The position numbers and the translations under genes are program-made. Shown piece by piece: positions 10,551 to 51,413 of a stretch of DNA of 64,000 bases (positions within the stretch are counted from its first letter, which is position 1; each line of letters starts with the position of its first letter). Location of the stretch: NCBI GenBank assembly GCA_030018135.1, contig JASEGJ010000002.1:1230-65229 (forward strand). The letters run 5' to 3'. This DNA comes from Candidatus Hodarchaeaceae archaeon. Its GTDB lineage: Archaea > Hadarchaeota > Hadarchaeia > Hadarchaeales > Hadarchaeaceae. The notes under the pieces were generated by a model. The model saw nothing but the letters and a program-made list of their open reading frames with translations. It was not told where the DNA came from and did no database searches.

Positions 10551-10642
10551 GAGCCGCCGGTGGGTCATGATCCCACGACCTATCGCTTACGAGGCGATCG
10601 CTTTTGGCGTGCCGAAGCACCCTGCCAGCTGAGCTACGGCGG
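10551..10642 (-). tRNA. tRNA-Thr (anticodon CGU) with a putative ~19-nt non-canonical intron in the D-arm
   Basis: Hand fold: acceptor GCCGCCG/CGGCGGC, anticodon arm ATCGC-CTCGTAA-GCGAT, T arm GTGGG-ATCATGA-CCCAC. A canonical D arm (GCTC...GAGC) appears only after removing GGTGCTTCGGCACGCCAAA (10602-10620). No CCA is encoded. Confidence 0.65.
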
Positions 10643-10726
10643 CCCAATTAACATTTGCCGAAACTTAACTTAACCATTTTCCCAAAGCAATCTTCAGTAA
10701 GGCGCTGCTAAAACAGTTTATTTGCC

Positions 10727-10815
10727 ATGGCGCCGGGGCAGGGATTTGAACCCTGGCGACCCGAAGGGTCAACAGATCTCGAGTCTGCCGCCTTACCTGG
10801 CTTGGCTACCCCGGC
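10727..10815 (-). tRNA. tRNA-Ser (anticodon CGA), class II, CCA encoded
   Basis: Hand fold: acceptor GCCGGGG/CCCCGGC, 3-bp D stem, anticodon loop CTCGAGA, long variable arm ACCC-TTCG-GGT, T stem CAGGG/CCCTG. As assembled the T loop is 8 nt (TTCAAATC). Confidence 0.85.
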
Positions 10816-25991: not shown

Positions 25992-26564
25992 TCAAGCCCT
26001 AGCCCGCGGGTACCGCCTGCGGCGGGGTACCAATATTATCAGCAAGCCGCCCTTGATCTCAACTGTATACTCGCTCGGCGCCGCATCCGGCGGTAGCTCA
26101 AATGCCGCAAAATAGGCCTCGCCACTACGTTTGCGCGCGATGACCTCCAGCGTATTCCCCAGTTGCCTTACTTCAACGTCATTTTTGCCCACATCGGAAA
26201 CCTGCATCGTCAAAACTACTTCATTCAGCTTTTCGATTTTTCCGACATTAGTCTCAAGCATTTTCGTCACTGGCCTCACCTCGCGAGGTTTGGCCTCGGC
26301 CCCCAGCGGGGCACGTTTGGGCGCGGATGGAATTTCCTCGATAACTGGCGCCACCCTTGCTGGGCGCTCGCGCTCGCCTATTCTCGTTACCTTGACTTCG
26401 GGCTTGCCCTTGCCATCGTCCCTTATTTCTATCTTGAAACCGGAAACGCCCGGCATCCGCTCGAACCCACTTATGTCCACCCTCTCGAACTCGCGGTCGA
26501 AGTCCCTAAACATTCGCCGCATTCGCCTGAAAAACTCATCGAACGGGTCCATTGTCAGCACCAA
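25992..26564 (-). CDS. Hsp20/alpha-crystallin-like protein (divergent)
   Basis: The C-terminal half resembles an ACD (DVEVRQLGNTLEVIARKR...YTVEIKGGLLIILVPRR). The N-terminal part is not recognised. Confidence 0.45.
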   Translation of the reverse strand: MVLTMDPFDEFFRRMRRMFRDFDREFERVDISGFERMPGVSGFKIEIRDDGKGKPEVKVTRIGERERPARVAPVIEEIPSAPKRAPLGAEAKPREVRPVTKMLETNVGKIEKLNEVVLTMQVSDVGKNDVEVRQLGNTLEVIARKRSGEAYFAAFELPPDAAPSEYTVEIKGGLLIILVPRRRRYPRARA

Positions 26565-29064: not shown

Positions 29065-29697
29065 TTGGTAGTGCCACTGATCACCAGCGGCGGCTTGATC
29101 CTGCTCACCATGACGATCGGGCCCATCGGCGCCGTGCCGTATGCAATCGACCGCGGCCTATCCATCGTTCAGGCGACCGTGGTTGTGTGCTCCGTGAACG
29201 TCGCGCTCGTCCCGATGTGGTTCGGCATCATGGAAGTTTTTGGATATAGCAAGAGGTACCACAAATACCTCGCAAACAGGGCATTGAAATACGTCTCGCG
29301 TAGGTCTGCGGAATTTCAAAGGAACCTTCAGGTTTGTGTGGCCGAGTTCGAGCGGCGACTCGGGCACATCGGCTTTTTCATCGGCTTGACCGTCTTCTCC
29401 TTCATCTTCGGGGTCGTTTGGCCCTCGATCGGCGCCTACTTTCTAAACATCAAGAGGGTGCCTGCACTCATCTCGATCTCGATCGGCGCAATCGGTAACG
29501 CCATCCTCTTCGGGTTAGCCGCGGTCGGAATGCTCCAGTTCGTGCCTAGCCCGAGGGCTCTTTACATTGGGCTGATGATGCTGACGGTCGCGTTTTTGTT
29601 CTACGGAAAGCTAAGGGAAATAAGGGTCCTGCGATCTATAGTGCGCAGATTGGAGAGGAGGCGCGGCAGCGATTACTCTTCTTCAAGCTCCTCGTAA
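29065..29697 (+). CDS. integral membrane protein (possibly small-multidrug-export-like)
   Basis: 210 aa, 4-5 hydrophobic segments, 12 nt downstream of the HerA-like gene. Confidence 0.55.
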   Translation: MVVPLITSGGLILLTMTIGPIGAVPYAIDRGLSIVQATVVVCSVNVALVPMWFGIMEVFGYSKRYHKYLANRALKYVSRRSAEFQRNLQVCVAEFERRLGHIGFFIGLTVFSFIFGVVWPSIGAYFLNIKRVPALISISIGAIGNAILFGLAAVGMLQFVPSPRALYIGLMMLTVAFLFYGKLREIRVLRSIVRRLERRRGSDYSSSSSS

Positions 29698-29816
29698 ATT
29701 TTTTCCTCTTCTTCGTAGAGGCAGGTGCCATCCGAGTAGTAGTCGCACTCCGCACAGCACTCATTTTTGTTCTCGCAGTCGTCATACATATAGCACTTGG
29801 AGCAACATTTCGGCAT
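29673..29816 (-). CDS. cysteine-rich acidic micro-protein (47 aa), absent from the ORF track
   Basis: Translates to MPKCCSKCYMYDDCENKNECCAECDYYSDGTCLYEEEEKIYEELEEE. GGAGGT lies 6 nt upstream of the ATG, and a TTAAATAA box lies further upstream. Confidence 0.45.
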   Translation of the reverse strand: MPKCCSKCYMYDDCENKNECCAECDYYSDGTCLYEEEEKIYEELEEE

Positions 29817-49526: not shown

Positions 49527-50176
49527 AACCGTTTAAAATTGGCCCCCGATGTCCCCGACACAACTAACAACGAGCTTCATCGACTGTCTTTTCGACGTTC
49601 TTCGCTCGCTAACCCTCGATGGCGGGTTTTCTCGGGAGCCACCCACCTGTTTCACACCAGGGTTGGCTTCAAGGTCATCGTTAGGTGTTTCCGCCAGTTA
49701 CTCCCCGAAGGACCCAATTTTGGTGTGTTTTTCGGTGGGCTTGCTCAGATGTGCCCGCGGTGATGCACCGGTGTTCACGAGTCGCACCAGCTCTCGATTC
49801 CCGCGGATATCCCTTCATCGCGATATAAATTTGGCTTTTGGTGATTATAAGGTTTAGACCATTGGTCCCCCCTTTTATAGGCCGCCTTGTCCAGCCAACC
49901 TGAGCGGGAGTTCCGGGGCGGGCTCCCTGTACAAAATCGTCAACACGGCGAGGAGCGCCCCGACGAGGACAAGCGGGCCAAACTTTAATCACGGCGTAAG
50001 ATAATGCTTTCAACGATATTAGGCGGATTGTAGTAGATACTAGAAATATGTCAAAAATATTCGGTGAAAATCTTATTATTCTTATAAAGTGGCTTGTTCA
50101 AGAAAAATAAGTGCAATTAAAGCTGCATTGAACTAAAAAGCGAAAATTTTATATGGGGCTGAAATGAAGTATTATT

Positions 50177-50466
50177 GCGCCGAGAGGGTGAAACCGGGAA
50201 GGCCTCTAGAACCGACCCCTGTGGATCCCACTGGTAGGAACCCTAAGAGATATAGGCCAGTCTGGAGGGGTTCCGAACAGCAGGCTGTGGAGGTAGGTTC
50301 GAAAACGCTTGACGGGCTACAGCGTGGAAAGCCCGTAAGGGTAATCCGCACGATCCGTGATGGATCGGAACGACGTGGTTCGGCGGGCTGTCTGAAAAGG
50401 CGGTTCGCGCGGGCTACGTCGTCTGCAGCCATCGAGTGGCTGAGGTTTGGGCCTTTATCTCGGCGC
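50177..50466 (+). ncRNA. ~290-nt structured RNA of unassigned class
   Basis: A TTTTATAT box (50147-50154) lies about 27 nt upstream. A terminal 9-bp helix pairs GCGCCGAGA (50177-85) with TCTCGGCGC (50458-66) and is followed by TTTT. Many nested helices are present, including a GAAA-capped 9-bp hairpin (50385-50406). The ORFs on both strands here look non-protein-like. Confidence 0.55.
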
Positions 50467-50537
50467 CTTTTATCCGTCTAATTAACGGAAACTTAAATTT
50501 CGATAAAATTCAAACGAAAATTGATCGTGGTGTCCGC

Positions 50538-51413
50538 GTGAGCGTCATCCGTAGTTTTGATCCGTGGGGGGATCCTCTTTGTACCTGCCCGAAAAAATAC
50601 AGCTTCGACCCCTACACCGGCTGTCCGCATTCCTGTTTGTACTGCTACATCACCTCTTACGTGCCTCGCGCCTTCGATTGTAGACCAAAGGAGAACTTGA
50701 TCAAACGCGTCGAGCGGGACCTGGGTAAGATCGACAAACGTTGCGCCATAAGCATGTCCAACAGCTCCGATCCGTATCCGCCCATGGAGGCGAAGCTAAA
50801 GTTGACTCGATCTTGCCTCGAGCTTTTTGCACGCGAGTGCTGCCGCGTGCTCGTGATAACCAAGTCTGACCTCGTCGCGAGGGACGTTGACCTCCTCGCT
50901 CAAATGTCGGTTGCGGTGAGCGTGACGATCACAACGATGGATGAGGAGTTGAACAGGAAGCTCGAGCCCGGCGCACCGAGTTCAAGACGGCGGCTAACCG
51001 CCATGAGAGAGCTTGCCAACCATCAAGTATCGGTTACCCTGCGCCTCGATCCAATTATCCCATTCGTAAACGATGCTCAGTTCGAGGATGTAATCGAAGC
51101 CGCTGCTGCGTGCGGGATCGAGCACGTGACCTCCTCGACGTTCAAGTTGCGGCCCGACAACTGGCGGCGGATTCGAGATGCCTTTCCCGATGCCGCGGCT
51201 CGCATGGGGCCGCTTTATTTTAAACATGGTGGGCGATATCGCAACAGCTGGTATCTGCCCATTGATCTCAGGCGAAGGTTGATGACCCGAGCAAAGGCAA
51301 CGTGCGATAGACTTGGGCTTACGTTCGCCACATGCCGCGAGGGGATACCCGAGTTGATGTCCGGGATGAGCTGCGATGGCAGCCACCTCGTCCGCATGCC
51401 CAGCTCCAACTAA
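50538..51413 (+). CDS. radical SAM protein, SplB/DNA-repair-photolyase-like
   Basis: CPHSCLYCY CxxxCxxC cluster near the N-terminus and a TIM-barrel-like remainder. The GTG start is provisional. Confidence 0.8.
   Translation: MSVIRSFDPWGDPLCTCPKKYSFDPYTGCPHSCLYCYITSYVPRAFDCRPKENLIKRVERDLGKIDKRCAISMSNSSDPYPPMEAKLKLTRSCLELFARECCRVLVITKSDLVARDVDLLAQMSVAVSVTITTMDEELNRKLEPGAPSSRRRLTAMRELANHQVSVTLRLDPIIPFVNDAQFEDVIEAAAACGIEHVTSSTFKLRPDNWRRIRDAFPDAAARMGPLYFKHGGRYRNSWYLPIDLRRRLMTRAKATCDRLGLTFATCREGIPELMSGMSCDGSHLVRMPSSN

What the first reader, a model, noticed from the sequence alone, without database searches (positions are those of the whole stretch)
50141..50472. Discrete promoter-to-terminator unit encoding a ~290-nt highly structured RNA I cannot classify
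A strong TTTTATAT box sits about 27 nt upstream of GCGCCGAGA (50177). That sequence pairs perfectly with TCTCGGCGC (50458-50466), which is followed immediately by TTTT. Inside this terminal helix I can draw the following: AAGGCC/GGCCTT; ACCCCT (50215-20) with AGGGGT (50266-71); GTGG-ATC-CCAC; ACTGG/CCAGT; CGAAC/GTTCG; CGATCC/GGATCG; AGCCA/TGGCT; a GAAA-capped 9-bp hairpin (50385-50406); and an interleaved pair of stems (ACGCT 50305-09 with AGCGT 50321-25, and ACGGGCT 50312-18 with AGCCCGT 50330-36) that could form a pseudoknot. CGGGCTAC occurs twice (50313, 50411), so AGCCCG has two alternative partners. The size and the closed ends suggest SRP or RNase P RNA. However, the near-invariant GAGGAAAGUCC and ACAGAA-CCGGCUUA (RNase P) and CAGGCCCGGAAGGGAGCA (archaeal SRP) motifs are absent.
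Basis: partly seen in the sequence, partly recalled or inferred. Interest (0 to 1): 0.65.

Follow-up and report, generated by a model that had tools for sequence, protein, structure and literature searches.

The report
New circular structured RNA of Hadarchaeota
This is a real gene whose ~290-nt transcript is cut at a tRNA-intron-type motif and joined end to end into a ~264-nt, highly folded circular RNA that matches no known RNA family and, in environmental RNA data, is about as abundant as the signal-recognition-particle RNA, so it is probably a new cellular RNA whose job is still unknown.

Summary
Window 50177-50466 (+) is a stand-alone RNA gene with a conserved BRE/TATA promoter and an oligo-T terminator. 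Homologues occur in 32 of 66 Hadarchaeota genomes, all in one family, plus 27 metagenome contigs.

A 14-helix fold is strongly supported: 97% of cells pair, 53 of 87 pairs show compensatory changes, and slid controls reach only 36-48%. The RNA is not SRP or RNase P RNA, since both lie elsewhere in this genome, and it matches no Rfam 15 family.

New here: the "closed ends" are a bulge-helix-bulge (BHB) processing stem. In four metatranscriptome runs, contigs of at least four related species cover only the inside of this stem. They join the second nucleotide of the 3' bulge back to the last nucleotide of the 5' bulge (window 50456->50193), giving 257-267-nt circles. DNA runs and the SRP RNA of the same organism show no such joint. 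EndA and RtcB are both encoded.

The mature product is therefore most likely an abundant circular ncRNA, with k-mer depth about 1-10x that of SRP RNA. Ligation creates an invariant ACCGG loop. The function is unknown, and the gene has been lost in several genera.

The parts
50135..50150 (+). BRE/TATA promoter (GAAAATTTTATATGG)
   Evidence: It lies ~29 nt upstream of the first conserved base. The motif GAAAGnTTTTTATGG sits at the same distance in all 23 aligned homologues.
50177..50466 (+). Precursor RNA (290 nt), from the inferred start G50177 to the end of the terminal helix
   Evidence: Sequence conservation begins and ends exactly here. CM R1 scores 271.7 bits. G-U pairs that never vary fix the strand.
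50177..50185 (+). P1 5' strand: outer helix of the BHB motif, removed on processing
   Evidence: It pairs with 50458-50466. 99% of cells pair and 3 pairs show compensatory change. RNA-seq coverage is zero.
50186..50189 (+). P2 5' strand (GGGU): central 4-bp helix of the BHB
   Evidence: It pairs with GCCU 50451-50454. All 4 pairs covary; for example G-C 18 against A-U 13 with no mismatch. On the metagenome set 100% of cells pair.
50190..50193 (+). 5' bulge (GAAA) with the 5' cleavage site before A50193 (or C50194)
   Evidence: Circular contigs re-enter at 50193, with an ambiguity of 1 nt. The bulge is 3 nt in 29 of 32 homologues, 3 nt on hand re-alignment of the G023 copy (L057), and 4 nt here and in L055.
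50193..50456 (+). Mature circular RNA (264 nt)
   Evidence: Contig 69447 of metatranscriptome X11 (~93% identical) joins 50456 back to 50193. Coverage is confined to this interval. Homologous circles of 257-267 nt are seen in runs X11-X14.
50194..50197 (+). CCGG: inner helix h' of the BHB in the precursor (with UUGG 50447-50450); part of the ACCGG junction loop in the circle
   Evidence: Read directly from the sequence. CCGG is near-invariant. The circular fold leaves ACCGG as a 5-nt loop.
50198..50205 (+). P2' 5' strand (GAAGGCCU): pairs with GGGCCUUU 50449-50456 in the circle
Evidence: 87% of cells pair and only 1 of 500 shuffles reaches that. It appears in the MFE of the circular molecule.
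50209..50300 (+). Domain I: P3 (50209-20 / 50289-300), P4 (invariant UGGAUCCCACUG / CAGCAGGCU), P5 hairpin with conserved AGGCC loop (50254-58)
   Evidence: In P3, 11 of 12 pairs show compensatory change. P4 is almost invariant. P5 covaries.
50307..50437 (+). Domain II: P6, P7 and a four-way junction carrying P8 (GNRA-capped, 50324-49), P9 (50351-67) and P10 (50372-420, rich in invariant G-U pairs)
   Evidence: Helices 8-14 all pair in 93-100% of cells and show compensatory changes.
50451..50454 (+). P2 3' strand (GCCU), retained in the circle
50455..50457 (+). 3' bulge (UUA) with the 3' cleavage site after U50456
   Evidence: The joint leaves from 50456. The bulge is 3 nt in 32 of 32 homologues.
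50458..50466 (+). P1 3' strand, removed on processing
50468..50471 (+). Oligo-T terminator
   Evidence: TTTT follows P1 after one C. T-runs occupy the same place in homologues.

Best explanation
Window 50177-50466 is a dedicated gene for a circular non-coding RNA.

**Inferred from sequence.** Transcription starts about 29 nt downstream of a strong BRE/TATA box and stops at the T-run.

**Shown by covariation.** The two ends of the transcript form a bulge-helix-bulge (BHB) motif of the kind found at archaeal tRNA introns and rRNA processing stems. It consists of a 9-bp outer helix P1, a 3-nt bulge on the 3' strand, a 4-bp helix P2, a 3-4-nt bulge on the 5' strand and a short inner helix.

**Shown for close relatives by RNA-seq contigs, inferred for this genome.** The RNA is cut after the second nucleotide of each bulge and the inner piece is ligated into a 264-nt circle. 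The P1 flanks disappear.

**Inferred from pathway knowledge and gene presence.** The enzymes are the tRNA-splicing endonuclease EndA and the ligase RtcB.

**Inferred from folding and moderate covariation.** After excision the freed 3' strand of P2 re-pairs with GAAGGCCU. This new helix, P2', closes a three-way junction and presents the invariant ACCGG as a hairpin loop spanning the ligation site.

**The circle.** It carries two covariation-supported domains with long invariant internal loops and G-U-rich helices. It accumulates to SRP-RNA-like or higher levels.

**Function (inferred only).** My best guess is that it is the exonuclease-resistant RNA core or scaffold of a lineage-specific ribonucleoprotein, or an RNA-binding-protein regulator. 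It is non-essential, because several genera have deleted it. It may be linked to the stress and DNA-repair gene island next to the replication origin, where the gene always sits.
For: **Real, structured and on this strand**
- z = -6.4.
- 87 pairs, 97.2% of cells paired, 53 pairs with compensatory change, 0 of 500 shuffles as good; slid controls reach 36-48%.
- Replicated on 27 metagenome copies: 98.1% paired.
- Invariant G-U pairs fix the strand.
- No conserved ORF.

**Not a known family**
- No Rfam hit at gathering threshold or at E<=10, either here or in 20 homologues.
- SRP RNA (147 bits) and RNase P RNA (204 bits) lie on other contigs.

**Circular**
- X11 contig 69447 (293 nt, ~93% identical) maps 50302-50456 and then 50193-50330. 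Its ends overlap by about one k-mer, which gives a 263-264-nt circle.
- On G011's copy, contigs 99.7-100% identical (0-1 mismatch) join 581->315, a 267-nt circle, in four samples. Depths are 27, 271, 911 and 20, and coverage on the P1 flanks is zero.
- A 287-nt contig of another species joins ...GGCCCUU|A(A)CCGG in three runs.
- A fourth variant joins at the same place.

**Controls**
- The SRP RNA of the same organism in the same runs is a linear 315-nt contig ending in adapter, with no joint.
- DNA contigs of relatives run colinear through 49983-50899 without a joint.

**BHB geometry**
- The junctions fall in the bulges that flank the 4-bp P2.
- The 3' bulge is 3 nt in 32 of 32 homologues. 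The 5' bulge is 3 nt in 29 of 32, and also in the G023 copy once that is re-aligned by hand.
- The divergent G023 copy keeps the motif with different letters: GGGG/UUCC, bulges UAG and CUG, inner helix CUCC/GGAG.

**Enzymes and energetics**
- EndA and RtcB are encoded.
- The BHB-constrained precursor fold lies only 2.2 kcal/mol above the MFE.

**Pathway knowledge.** BHB cleavage by EndA followed by ligation is the established archaeal route to circular RNAs (PMC12558985; PMC4731332).

**Abundance.** k-mer depth against SRP RNA is 271 vs 29, ~500-1300 vs 541, and 20 vs 6.
Against: - Circularity is seen in assembled contigs (Logan), not in raw reads, and in relatives that are 93-100% identical to homologues. 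No RNA run holds this exact genome.
- In this window the 5' bulge is 4 nt (GAAA) rather than the canonical 3.
- The inner helix is only 4 bp here (two of them G-U) and needs a 1-nt bulge in many homologues.
- The unconstrained MFE of the precursor prefers P2' to the BHB conformer.
- Contigs cannot show what fraction of molecules is circular, or whether the circle is later re-opened.
- The libraries were size-fractionated, so abundance ratios are rough.
- No protein partner, ligand or target was found. The gene is deleted in several genera, which argues against a core housekeeping role: G004, G008 and most of g11.
Confidence: 0.8

Rival explanations
1. The circle is only a processing intermediate. 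As with archaeal 16S/23S rRNA or the permuted 23S rRNA of Pyrococcus, it is re-opened at another site, and the functional RNA is a linear, circularly permuted molecule.
For: BHB-derived circles of rRNA are intermediates in other archaea (PMC7758197, PMC12918454). Contigs cannot distinguish a closed circle from a mixture of permuted linear forms that all contain the junction.
Against: - No second set of defined ends appears. Run by run, each junction-spanning contig of the G011-type and 287-nt species closes on itself, with only arbitrary break points.
- The invariant ACCGG loop sits exactly on the junction, so the ligated form is what selection sees.
Confidence: 0.1
2. It is a linear ~290-nt structured RNA closed by the terminal helix. 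On this view it is a divergent relative or functional analogue of SRP or RNase P RNA.
For: The size, the closed ends and a multi-helix fold. P1 is highly conserved in sequence.
Against: - RNA coverage stops inside the terminal helix and the ends are joined.
- Canonical SRP and RNase P RNAs exist in the genome.
- No partial match to either model at E<=10.
Confidence: 0.04
3. The functional product is the pair of ligated 'exons', a ~26-nt P1 hairpin. The 264-nt circle would then be a stable excised intron with no role of its own.
For: The geometry is that of a tRNA intron. P1 is almost invariant in sequence, which a mere stem would not need. RNAs under 31 nt cannot appear in the contigs.
Against: Nearly all conservation and covariation (74 of 87 pairs, long invariant loops) lies inside the circle, which a junk intron would not keep across about 11 genera. 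The circle is very abundant.
Confidence: 0.03
4. It is a cis-acting leader or riboswitch of the downstream radical-SAM (SplB-like) gene at 50526-51413.
For: It lies on the same strand, about 55 nt upstream of that gene in this window and in about 20 genomes.
Against: - It has its own terminator.
- In at least 10 genomes the radical-SAM gene is absent and the RNA abuts the convergent Ogg gene.
- G004 and G008 keep the radical-SAM gene without the RNA.
- RNA coverage ends inside the RNA.
Confidence: 0.01
5. The back-joints are assembly artefacts of short-read contigs.
For: Only contigs, not reads, were available. The RNA contains an internal near-repeat (CGGGCUAC appears twice).
Against: - The same junction appears in four samples and at least four sequence variants.
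- The junction lies at the two predicted BHB bulges, not at the repeat.
- The linear SRP RNA control and the DNA controls show no joint.
- Contig lengths equal the circle plus an end overlap of about one k-mer: 26-30 nt in four of the five contigs, about 20 nt in one.
Confidence: 0.02

Closest known systems
BHB-excised circular RNAs of Archaea (circular tRNA introns such as the tRNA-Trp intron that carries a C/D box sRNA; circular pre-16S/23S rRNA)
   Same: The motif is the same: outer helix, 3-nt bulge, 4-bp helix, 3-nt bulge, inner helix. The cut positions and the end-to-end ligation also match, presumably by the same enzymes, EndA and RtcB (PMC12558985).
   Different: - It is not embedded in a tRNA or rRNA gene. 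The 'exons' are just a 9-bp stem with its own promoter and terminator.
- The excised part is a 264-nt multi-domain conserved RNA with no C/D or H/ACA boxes.
- It appears to be the end product rather than a by-product or intermediate.
Circularly permuted SRP RNA of Thermoproteus (circularisation restores function; PMC4731332)
   Same: It is a stand-alone ncRNA gene of about 300 nt whose functional form is made by BHB cleavage and circularisation.
   Different: That RNA is a recognisable, though permuted, SRP RNA. This one matches no SRP model, even partially, and the genome has a canonical linear SRP RNA.
Large orphan 'ornate' bacterial ncRNAs (OLE, GOLLD, ROOL, raiA)
   Same: It is a lineage-restricted, highly conserved multi-helix RNA. 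It has invariant loops, high abundance and no known function. Its palindromic loops could mediate self-association. (The comparison rests on my own knowledge of these classes.)
   Different: It is archaeal, smaller and circular. It shows no sequence or Rfam relationship to these classes.
Archaeal SRP RNA (RF01857) and RNase P RNA (RF00373)
   Same: The size (~290-310 nt), a GC-rich island behind a strong promoter, and paired 5' and 3' ends in the primary transcript.
   Different: There is no model match and the signature motifs are absent. The architecture differs, with two domains on a three-way junction. The terminal helix is removed. Genuine genes for both RNAs lie elsewhere in the genome.
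Metazoan tRNA-intronic circular RNAs (tricRNAs; PMC4536317)
   Same: These are stable circles produced by the tRNA splicing endonuclease and an RtcB-type ligase.
   Different: tricRNAs derive from true tRNA introns and are not conserved structured RNAs with their own gene.

Membership tests
Archaea_SRP (Rfam RF01857) | Covariance-model score at or above the gathering threshold (96.5 bits), with the helix 8 and helix 6 motifs | tested here: not met
   No match even at E<=10 in 50000-50600 or in 20 homologues. The genome's SRP RNA is at C7:1427-1734, scoring 147 bits.
RNaseP_arch (Rfam RF00373) | Covariance-model score at or above 84 bits, with the CR-I to CR-V motifs and the P4 pseudoknot | tested here: not met
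   No match at E<=10. The genome's RNase P RNA is at C41:16740-17026, scoring 204.5 bits.
Any Rfam 15 family (4227 models) | A match at the gathering score, or a weak match that recurs across homologues | tested here: not met
   In the RNA itself, the best hit in this window is 16.8 bits against a threshold of 45 (trypanosomatid snoRNA), and among 20 homologues there is only one chance-level hit (DUF3800-VI, 23.5 bits against 35, E = 2.2, in one homologue). No hit recurs. Rotated (permuted) sequences could not be submitted.
Archaeal BHB (bulge-helix-bulge) splicing-endonuclease substrate | Two 3-nt bulges on opposite strands, separated by exactly 4 bp | tested here: met
   P2 is 4 bp in all sequences, with 98-100% of cells paired and covarying. 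The 3' bulge is 3 nt in 32 of 32. The 5' bulge is 3 nt in 29 of 32 (and in G023 after hand re-alignment), but 4 nt (GAAA) in this window.
Archaeal BHB (bulge-helix-bulge) splicing-endonuclease substrate | Flanking outer and inner helices (h and h') | tested here: inconclusive
   The outer helix P1 is 9 bp and 99% paired. The inner helix here is CCGG/UUGG. In many homologues it needs a 1-nt bulge. In the G023 copy it is a perfect CUCC/GGAG. I read this by eye and did not test it statistically.
Archaeal BHB (bulge-helix-bulge) splicing-endonuclease substrate | Cleavage inside both bulges at symmetric positions, followed by ligation of the excised piece | tested here: met
   Junctions are 50456->50193 (ambiguity 1 nt) and L054 581->315 (ambiguity 2 nt). 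That is, after the second nucleotide of the 3' bulge to the last nucleotide of the 5' bulge. This was observed in relatives, not in this exact strain.
Archaeal BHB (bulge-helix-bulge) splicing-endonuclease substrate | EndA and an RNA ligase (RtcB) present, and shown to act on the substrate | not testable with these tools
   The genes are present: EndA has a 189-aa frame at C33 scoring 122 bits, and RtcB at C11 scores 521 bits. Enzymatic action on this RNA was not tested and cannot be tested here.
Circular RNA | A back-joint present in RNA but not in DNA; exonuclease (RNase R) resistance | tested here: met
   The back-joint is present in 4 RNA runs and absent from 4 DNA runs. The linear SRP control is clean. 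RNase R resistance cannot be tested here.
Riboswitch / cis-regulatory leader | A constant association with a downstream gene on the same transcript | tested here: not met
   The downstream radical-SAM gene is missing in at least 10 genomes that carry the RNA and is present in genomes that lack it. The RNA has its own terminator.
C/D box or H/ACA guide sRNA (common cargo of archaeal circular RNAs) | Conserved C (RUGAUGA) and D (CUGA) boxes, or an ACA box with a pseudouridylation pocket | tested here: not met
   GUGAUGG in the P9 loop is GUGAAGG, GUAAA or AAAA in homologues. CUGA is not conserved. There is no ACA tail.

The most novel reading that the evidence does not exclude
The circle may be the working core of a previously unknown archaeal RNA machine, rather than a passive stable RNA. 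One version is a self-associating RNA: its two palindromic apical loops are ACCGG, which exists as a loop only after ligation, and AGGCC of P5, and these could mediate dimer or higher-order assembly, as in the bacterial ROOL, GOLLD and OLE particles. Another version is the RNA subunit of a new RNP that acts in the heat, oxidative and DNA-damage response. That idea rests on the gene's fixed position between a Cys-rich mini-protein/Hsp20-like pair and the SplB-like/Ogg/pseudo-primase/oriC block.
Probability: 0.15. Interest if true: 0.9.

Novelty: categorically new. Interest (0 to 1): 0.78.

Why it matters
Nearly all large, conserved, abundant structured RNAs known in Archaea are universal housekeeping RNAs: rRNA, tRNA, SRP RNA and RNase P RNA. 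This one would be different. It is a lineage-specific, multi-domain RNA with a dedicated gene. Its mature form is made by borrowing the tRNA-splicing machinery to produce a circle, and its conserved loop exists only after ligation.

Three consequences follow:
- The BHB/EndA/RtcB pathway is used to manufacture a free-standing functional circular RNA, not only to remove introns or mature rRNA.
- An uncultured subsurface and hot-spring phylum gains a highly expressed molecular marker.
- The RNA is a tractable candidate for structural and biochemical work. At 264 nt it can be made in vitro with EndA and RtcB, which could reveal a new RNA function.

There is also a practical point. Covariance-model annotation and linear-RNA thinking would both miss the true product.

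Tried and rejected
**Known-family membership.**
- Rfam at gathering threshold on the whole window and at E<=10 on the locus and on 20 homologues gave nothing.
- SRP or RNase P identity was rejected, because genuine genes lie elsewhere.
- A C/D box, H/ACA or K-turn reading of the P8 and P9 loops was rejected: the motifs are not conserved.

**Alternative kinds of element.**
- Protein coding (the 105-aa ORF at 50164-50481) was rejected.
- A leader of the radical-SAM gene was rejected by synteny.
- A mobile or viral origin was rejected: the gene is single-copy and syntenic, and the two IMG/VR pattern hits are not the RNA.

**Structure details.**
- For a J2/3-L5 pseudoknot (GCCU/AGGC), 89% of cells pair, but 40 of 500 shuffles do as well, and it competes with P2'. 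I left it as unproven.
- An unrestricted scan for extra covarying 4-bp helices gave only promiscuous G/U-rich pairings.

**Wider distribution and partners.**
- Divergent homologues were sought outside the family in several ways: laxer CM filters on 34 genomes, filters off on syntenic regions anchored on the PriS-like gene, and filters off on regions anchored on the Cys-rich gene. Only a decayed remnant in G018 (L060:165-403) turned up.
- In the tested genomes lacking the RNA, no neighbour is consistently co-lost: the Cys-rich gene is kept where found, the PriS-like gene is kept in g11 and G008, the radical-SAM gene is kept in G004 and G008, and the Hsp20-like gene is kept in g11 and G004.

**Literature.** Searches for a described Hadarchaeota ncRNA found none.

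**Expression in this strain.** No RNA run holds this exact genome, so its own transcript ends could not be read.
Full report
**The observation.**
A TTTTATAT box lies at 50141-48. GCGCCGAGA at 50177-85 is complementary to UCUCGGCGC at 50458-66, which is followed by C and then TTTT.
- The + strand folds to -146.7 kcal/mol. Shuffles average -112.9 +/- 5.3, giving z = -6.4, and none of 200 folds as well. The - strand gives z = -3.8.
- An ORF of 105 codons overlaps the region. Homologues differ by 1-2-nt indels and carry stops in every frame, so it is not coding.

**Not a known family.**
- cmscan against Rfam 15 finds only two intron-containing tRNAs in the window at gathering threshold.
- At E<=10 on 50000-50600 there are only two chance-level snoRNA hits.
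- Scanning 20 homologous loci found no recurring family.
- The window's genome is 1.1 Mb in 45 contigs and 93% complete. It has a canonical SRP RNA (C7:1427-1734, 147 bits) and RNase P RNA (C41:16740-17026, 204 bits) elsewhere. So this is a third RNA of about that size.

**Relatives and distribution.**
- BLASTN found copies of 68-78% identity in 23 of 61 related genomes.
- A flanked alignment shows that conservation begins exactly at GCGCC and ends exactly at GGCGC. A conserved GAAAGnTTTTTATGG promoter lies ~29 nt upstream and T-runs lie downstream.
- A covariance model (R1) found the RNA in 32 of the 66 genomes held for the phylum. All are in the window's own family (32 of 48 genomes, 11 of that family's 12 genera).
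- Laxer filters on the other 34 genomes added nothing credible.
- An exact-pattern scan of 185,579 species genomes returned 25 stretches of DNA. Twenty-one are MAGs titled Hadesarchaea, Hadarchaeota or Hadarchaeales, counting one mis-titled 'Hodarchaeaceae', which is G002. One is a short contig binned as Bathyarchaeota that carries a full copy (276 bits). Three are chance bacterial hits.
- A metagenome scan gave 27 more copies. The two IMG/VR hits are not the RNA.
- The organism is therefore a member of the Hadarchaeota, and the RNA is specific to one family of that phylum.

**Secondary structure.** RNAalifold on 23 sequences gave 87 pairs, 43 of them with compensatory changes.

| Measure | 32 CM-aligned sequences | 27 metagenome copies |
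|---|---|---|
| Cells paired | 97.2% | 98.1% |
| Pairs with compensatory change | 53 of 87 | 28 of 87 |
| Shuffles as good | 0 of 500 | 0 of 500 |
| Cells paired when partners are slid 1-3 columns | 36-48% | 34-47% |

Window coordinates are:

| Helix | Coordinates | Note |
|---|---|---|
| P1 | 50177-85 / 50458-66 | outer helix |
| P2 | GGGU 50186-89 / GCCU 50451-54 | 4 bp |
| P3 | 50209-20 / 50289-300 | domain I; 12 bp, 11 covarying |
| P4 | invariant UGGAUCCCACUG / CAGCAGGCU | domain I |
| P5 | hairpin with conserved AGGCC loop | domain I |
| P6 | 50307-10 / 50434-37 | domain II |
| P7 | 50315-22 / 50423-30 | domain II; opens a four-way junction |
| P8 | on the four-way junction | GNRA-capped |
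| P9 | on the four-way junction | |
| P10 | on the four-way junction | long, with invariant G-U pairs |

It contradicts ACCCCU/AGGGGU, GUGG..CCAC, ACUGG/CCAGU, AGCCA/UGGCU and both arms of the proposed pseudoknot.

**Transcription and the circular junction.** No RNA run holds this exact strain. One size-fractionated subsurface metatranscriptome, X11, shares words with the RNA.
- On the window, X11 contigs cover only 50193-50456, with zero depth outside.
- Contig 69447 (293 nt, ~93% identical) maps 50302-50456 and then continues at 50193-50330. This is a back-joint 50456->50193 with an ambiguity of 1 nt.
- The contig's two ends repeat about 30 nt, as expected for a k-mer assembly of a 263-264-nt circle.
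- A second contig shows ...CCCGUGGCCCUU directly before A50193. That is the same junction in another species, and it recurs in X12 and X13 at depth 88.
- Using the G011 homologue (L054, RNA at 300-590) as reference, a 100%-identical contig joins 581->315, a 267-nt circle.
- A search with that sequence found three more runs from other samples of the same study. All show the same joint, at depths 271, 911 and 20, and none covers positions 300-314 or 582-590.
- A fourth variant joins at the equivalent place.

**Controls.**
- The SRP RNA of G011 in the same four runs is a linear 315-nt contig with Illumina adapter at its end and no joint.
- Four DNA metagenome runs holding 90-95%-identical relatives give contigs that run colinear across 49983-50899 with no joint.

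**Why the junction identifies the mechanism.**
- The two joined positions lie in the unpaired nucleotides on either side of the 4-bp helix P2. These are UU|A (50455-57), between P2 and P1 on the 3' strand, and GAA|A (50190-93), between P2 and CCGG on the 5' strand.
- Outer helix, 3-nt bulge, 4-bp helix, 3-nt bulge on the other strand, inner helix is the bulge-helix-bulge motif cut by the archaeal tRNA-splicing endonuclease. The excised pieces are ligated into circles by RtcB. This is established for tRNA introns, pre-rRNA and the permuted Thermoproteus SRP RNA (PMC12558985; PMC4731332; the cut position after the second bulge nucleotide is from my own knowledge).
- Across the 32 homologues the 3' bulge is always 3 nt. 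The 5' bulge is 3 nt in 29, and also in the G023 copy once re-aligned by hand. It is 4 nt in this window and in L055.
- P2 shows clean G-C to A-U swaps (18:13 and 9:14) with no mismatches.
- The very divergent G023 copy (69 bits) keeps the motif with different letters: GGGG/UUCC, bulges UAG and CUG, inner helix CUCC/GGAG.
- The genome encodes EndA (189-aa frame, 122 bits) and RtcB (521 bits).
- Forcing the BHB conformer costs only 2.2 kcal/mol relative to the precursor MFE.

**The mature form.**
- Folding the 264-nt sequence as a circle pairs GAAGGCCU (50198-205) with GGGCCUUU (50449-56). It leaves ACCGG as a 5-nt loop lying on the ligation site.
- In the alignment this helix, P2', pairs in 87% of cells, and only 1 of 500 shuffles reaches that. 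The exceptions are lineages where the register shifts.
- P2 and P2' share the 3' strand. The simplest reading is a switch: BHB in the precursor, P2' in the circle.
- ACCGG is almost invariant, which suggests selection acts on the ligated form.

**Abundance.** k-mer depths of the G011 circle against the G011 SRP RNA are:

| Run | Circle | SRP RNA |
|---|---|---|
| X11 | 27-31 | 0 |
| X12 | 271 | 29 |
| X13 | about 500-1300 | 541 |
| X14 | 20 | 6 |

They are rough, because they are contig depths from size-selected libraries. Even so, they place the RNA among the major stable RNAs of the cell.

**Genomic context.**
- On the 3' side the order is RNA, an optional SplB-like radical-SAM gene, then convergent Ogg and a PriS-like gene. 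This holds in nearly all genomes. Earlier notes of this scan place the replication origin just beyond that block.
- On the 5' side nearly all genomes carry a divergently transcribed 46-47-aa protein with 8-10 cysteines in the copies read. Its start lies 105-120 nt from the RNA start where the contig extends that far. An Hsp20-like gene follows it.
- In this genome those two genes lie instead at 29676-29816 and 26028-26483. Related strains diverge from the window upstream of ~49983. A rearrangement breakpoint therefore lies just upstream of the promoter.
- The radical-SAM gene is absent from at least 10 genomes that have the RNA, which excludes a leader function.

**Losses.**
- The RNA has been cleanly deleted in G004, where the Cys-rich gene sits 134 nt from the radical-SAM gene.
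- It is missing in G008.
- It is missing in most of genus g11, where Ogg, the radical-SAM gene and the RNA are absent together and G018 keeps a decayed remnant.
- It is therefore dispensable in some lineages. None of its neighbours is consistently co-lost across those lineages.

**What remains unknown.**
- No ligand, target or protein partner is indicated.
- No C/D box, H/ACA or K-turn signatures are conserved.
- A J2/3-L5 pseudoknot is possible but does not exceed the shuffles.
- The two palindromic loops, ACCGG and AGGCC, could mediate self-association. This is speculation. An earlier agent of this scan, working on a homologue, raised the same idea for the GGCC loop.
- My best-supported statement about function is limited. 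The RNA is an abundant, exonuclease-proof, lineage-specific structured RNA, and most likely an RNP core or scaffold.

**Verdict.**
- It is a new RNA family whose dedicated gene uses the tRNA-splicing machinery to make a conserved circular RNA.
- Circularity in this exact strain is inferred from relatives and from the conserved motif. It rests on assembled contigs rather than raw reads.

Noticed in passing
window 10552-10643 (-) and 10731-10815 (-): Two adjacent tRNA genes each carry an insertion relative to the tRNA model. One is a 22-nt insert in the D-arm region, which is a non-canonical intron position. The other has a 13-nt block in the variable-loop region. This fits with an active BHB splicing system in this genome.
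   Followed up: no
window 29676-29816 (-) and 26028-26483 (-): The first is a 47-aa protein with 9 cysteines (MPKCCSKCYMYDDCENKNECCAECDYYSDGTC...). The second is an Hsp20-like gene of about 200 aa. In nearly all other genomes these two are the divergent upstream neighbours of the RNA, but here they lie about 20 kb away. The Cys-rich gene also persists in genomes that have lost the RNA.
   Followed up: partly
window 49850-49985: DNA contigs of related strains (90-95% identical) break away from the window at 49850, 49896 and 49983-85. The ORF-free stretch 49527-50010 upstream of the RNA promoter is therefore strain-variable. It probably marks the rearrangement that separated the RNA from the Cys-rich/Hsp20-like pair.
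   Followed up: partly
G000:C11:68229-70859 (L093): The RtcB match is split. Profile positions 23-50 and 49-426 lie ~1.4 kb apart within one 874-aa frame. This suggests an intein in the RNA ligase gene.
   Followed up: no
L060:165-403 (-) (G018:C2): A decayed remnant of the RNA (10.6 bits, with domain II motifs recognisable) lies between the PriS-like and Cys-rich genes of a g11 genome. The sister genomes G010 and G024 have lost it completely, and G069 keeps a full copy at 162 bits.
   Followed up: partly
run X13, contig 920, laid on L054:554-583: A 256-nt RNA contig (depth 228) shares the last 30 nt before the junction with the G011 circle. It then continues into a different sequence (GGCGGGAGGAAGCCUGCAGAGAUGGCCGAA...). 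It is either a strain with a divergent 5' region or a different ligation partner.
   Followed up: no
L077 (JBBIVD010000178.1, 3681 bp): A contig binned as 'Candidatus Bathyarchaeota' carries a full-score copy of the RNA (276 bits). It is probably a mis-binned Hadarchaeota contig.
   Followed up: no
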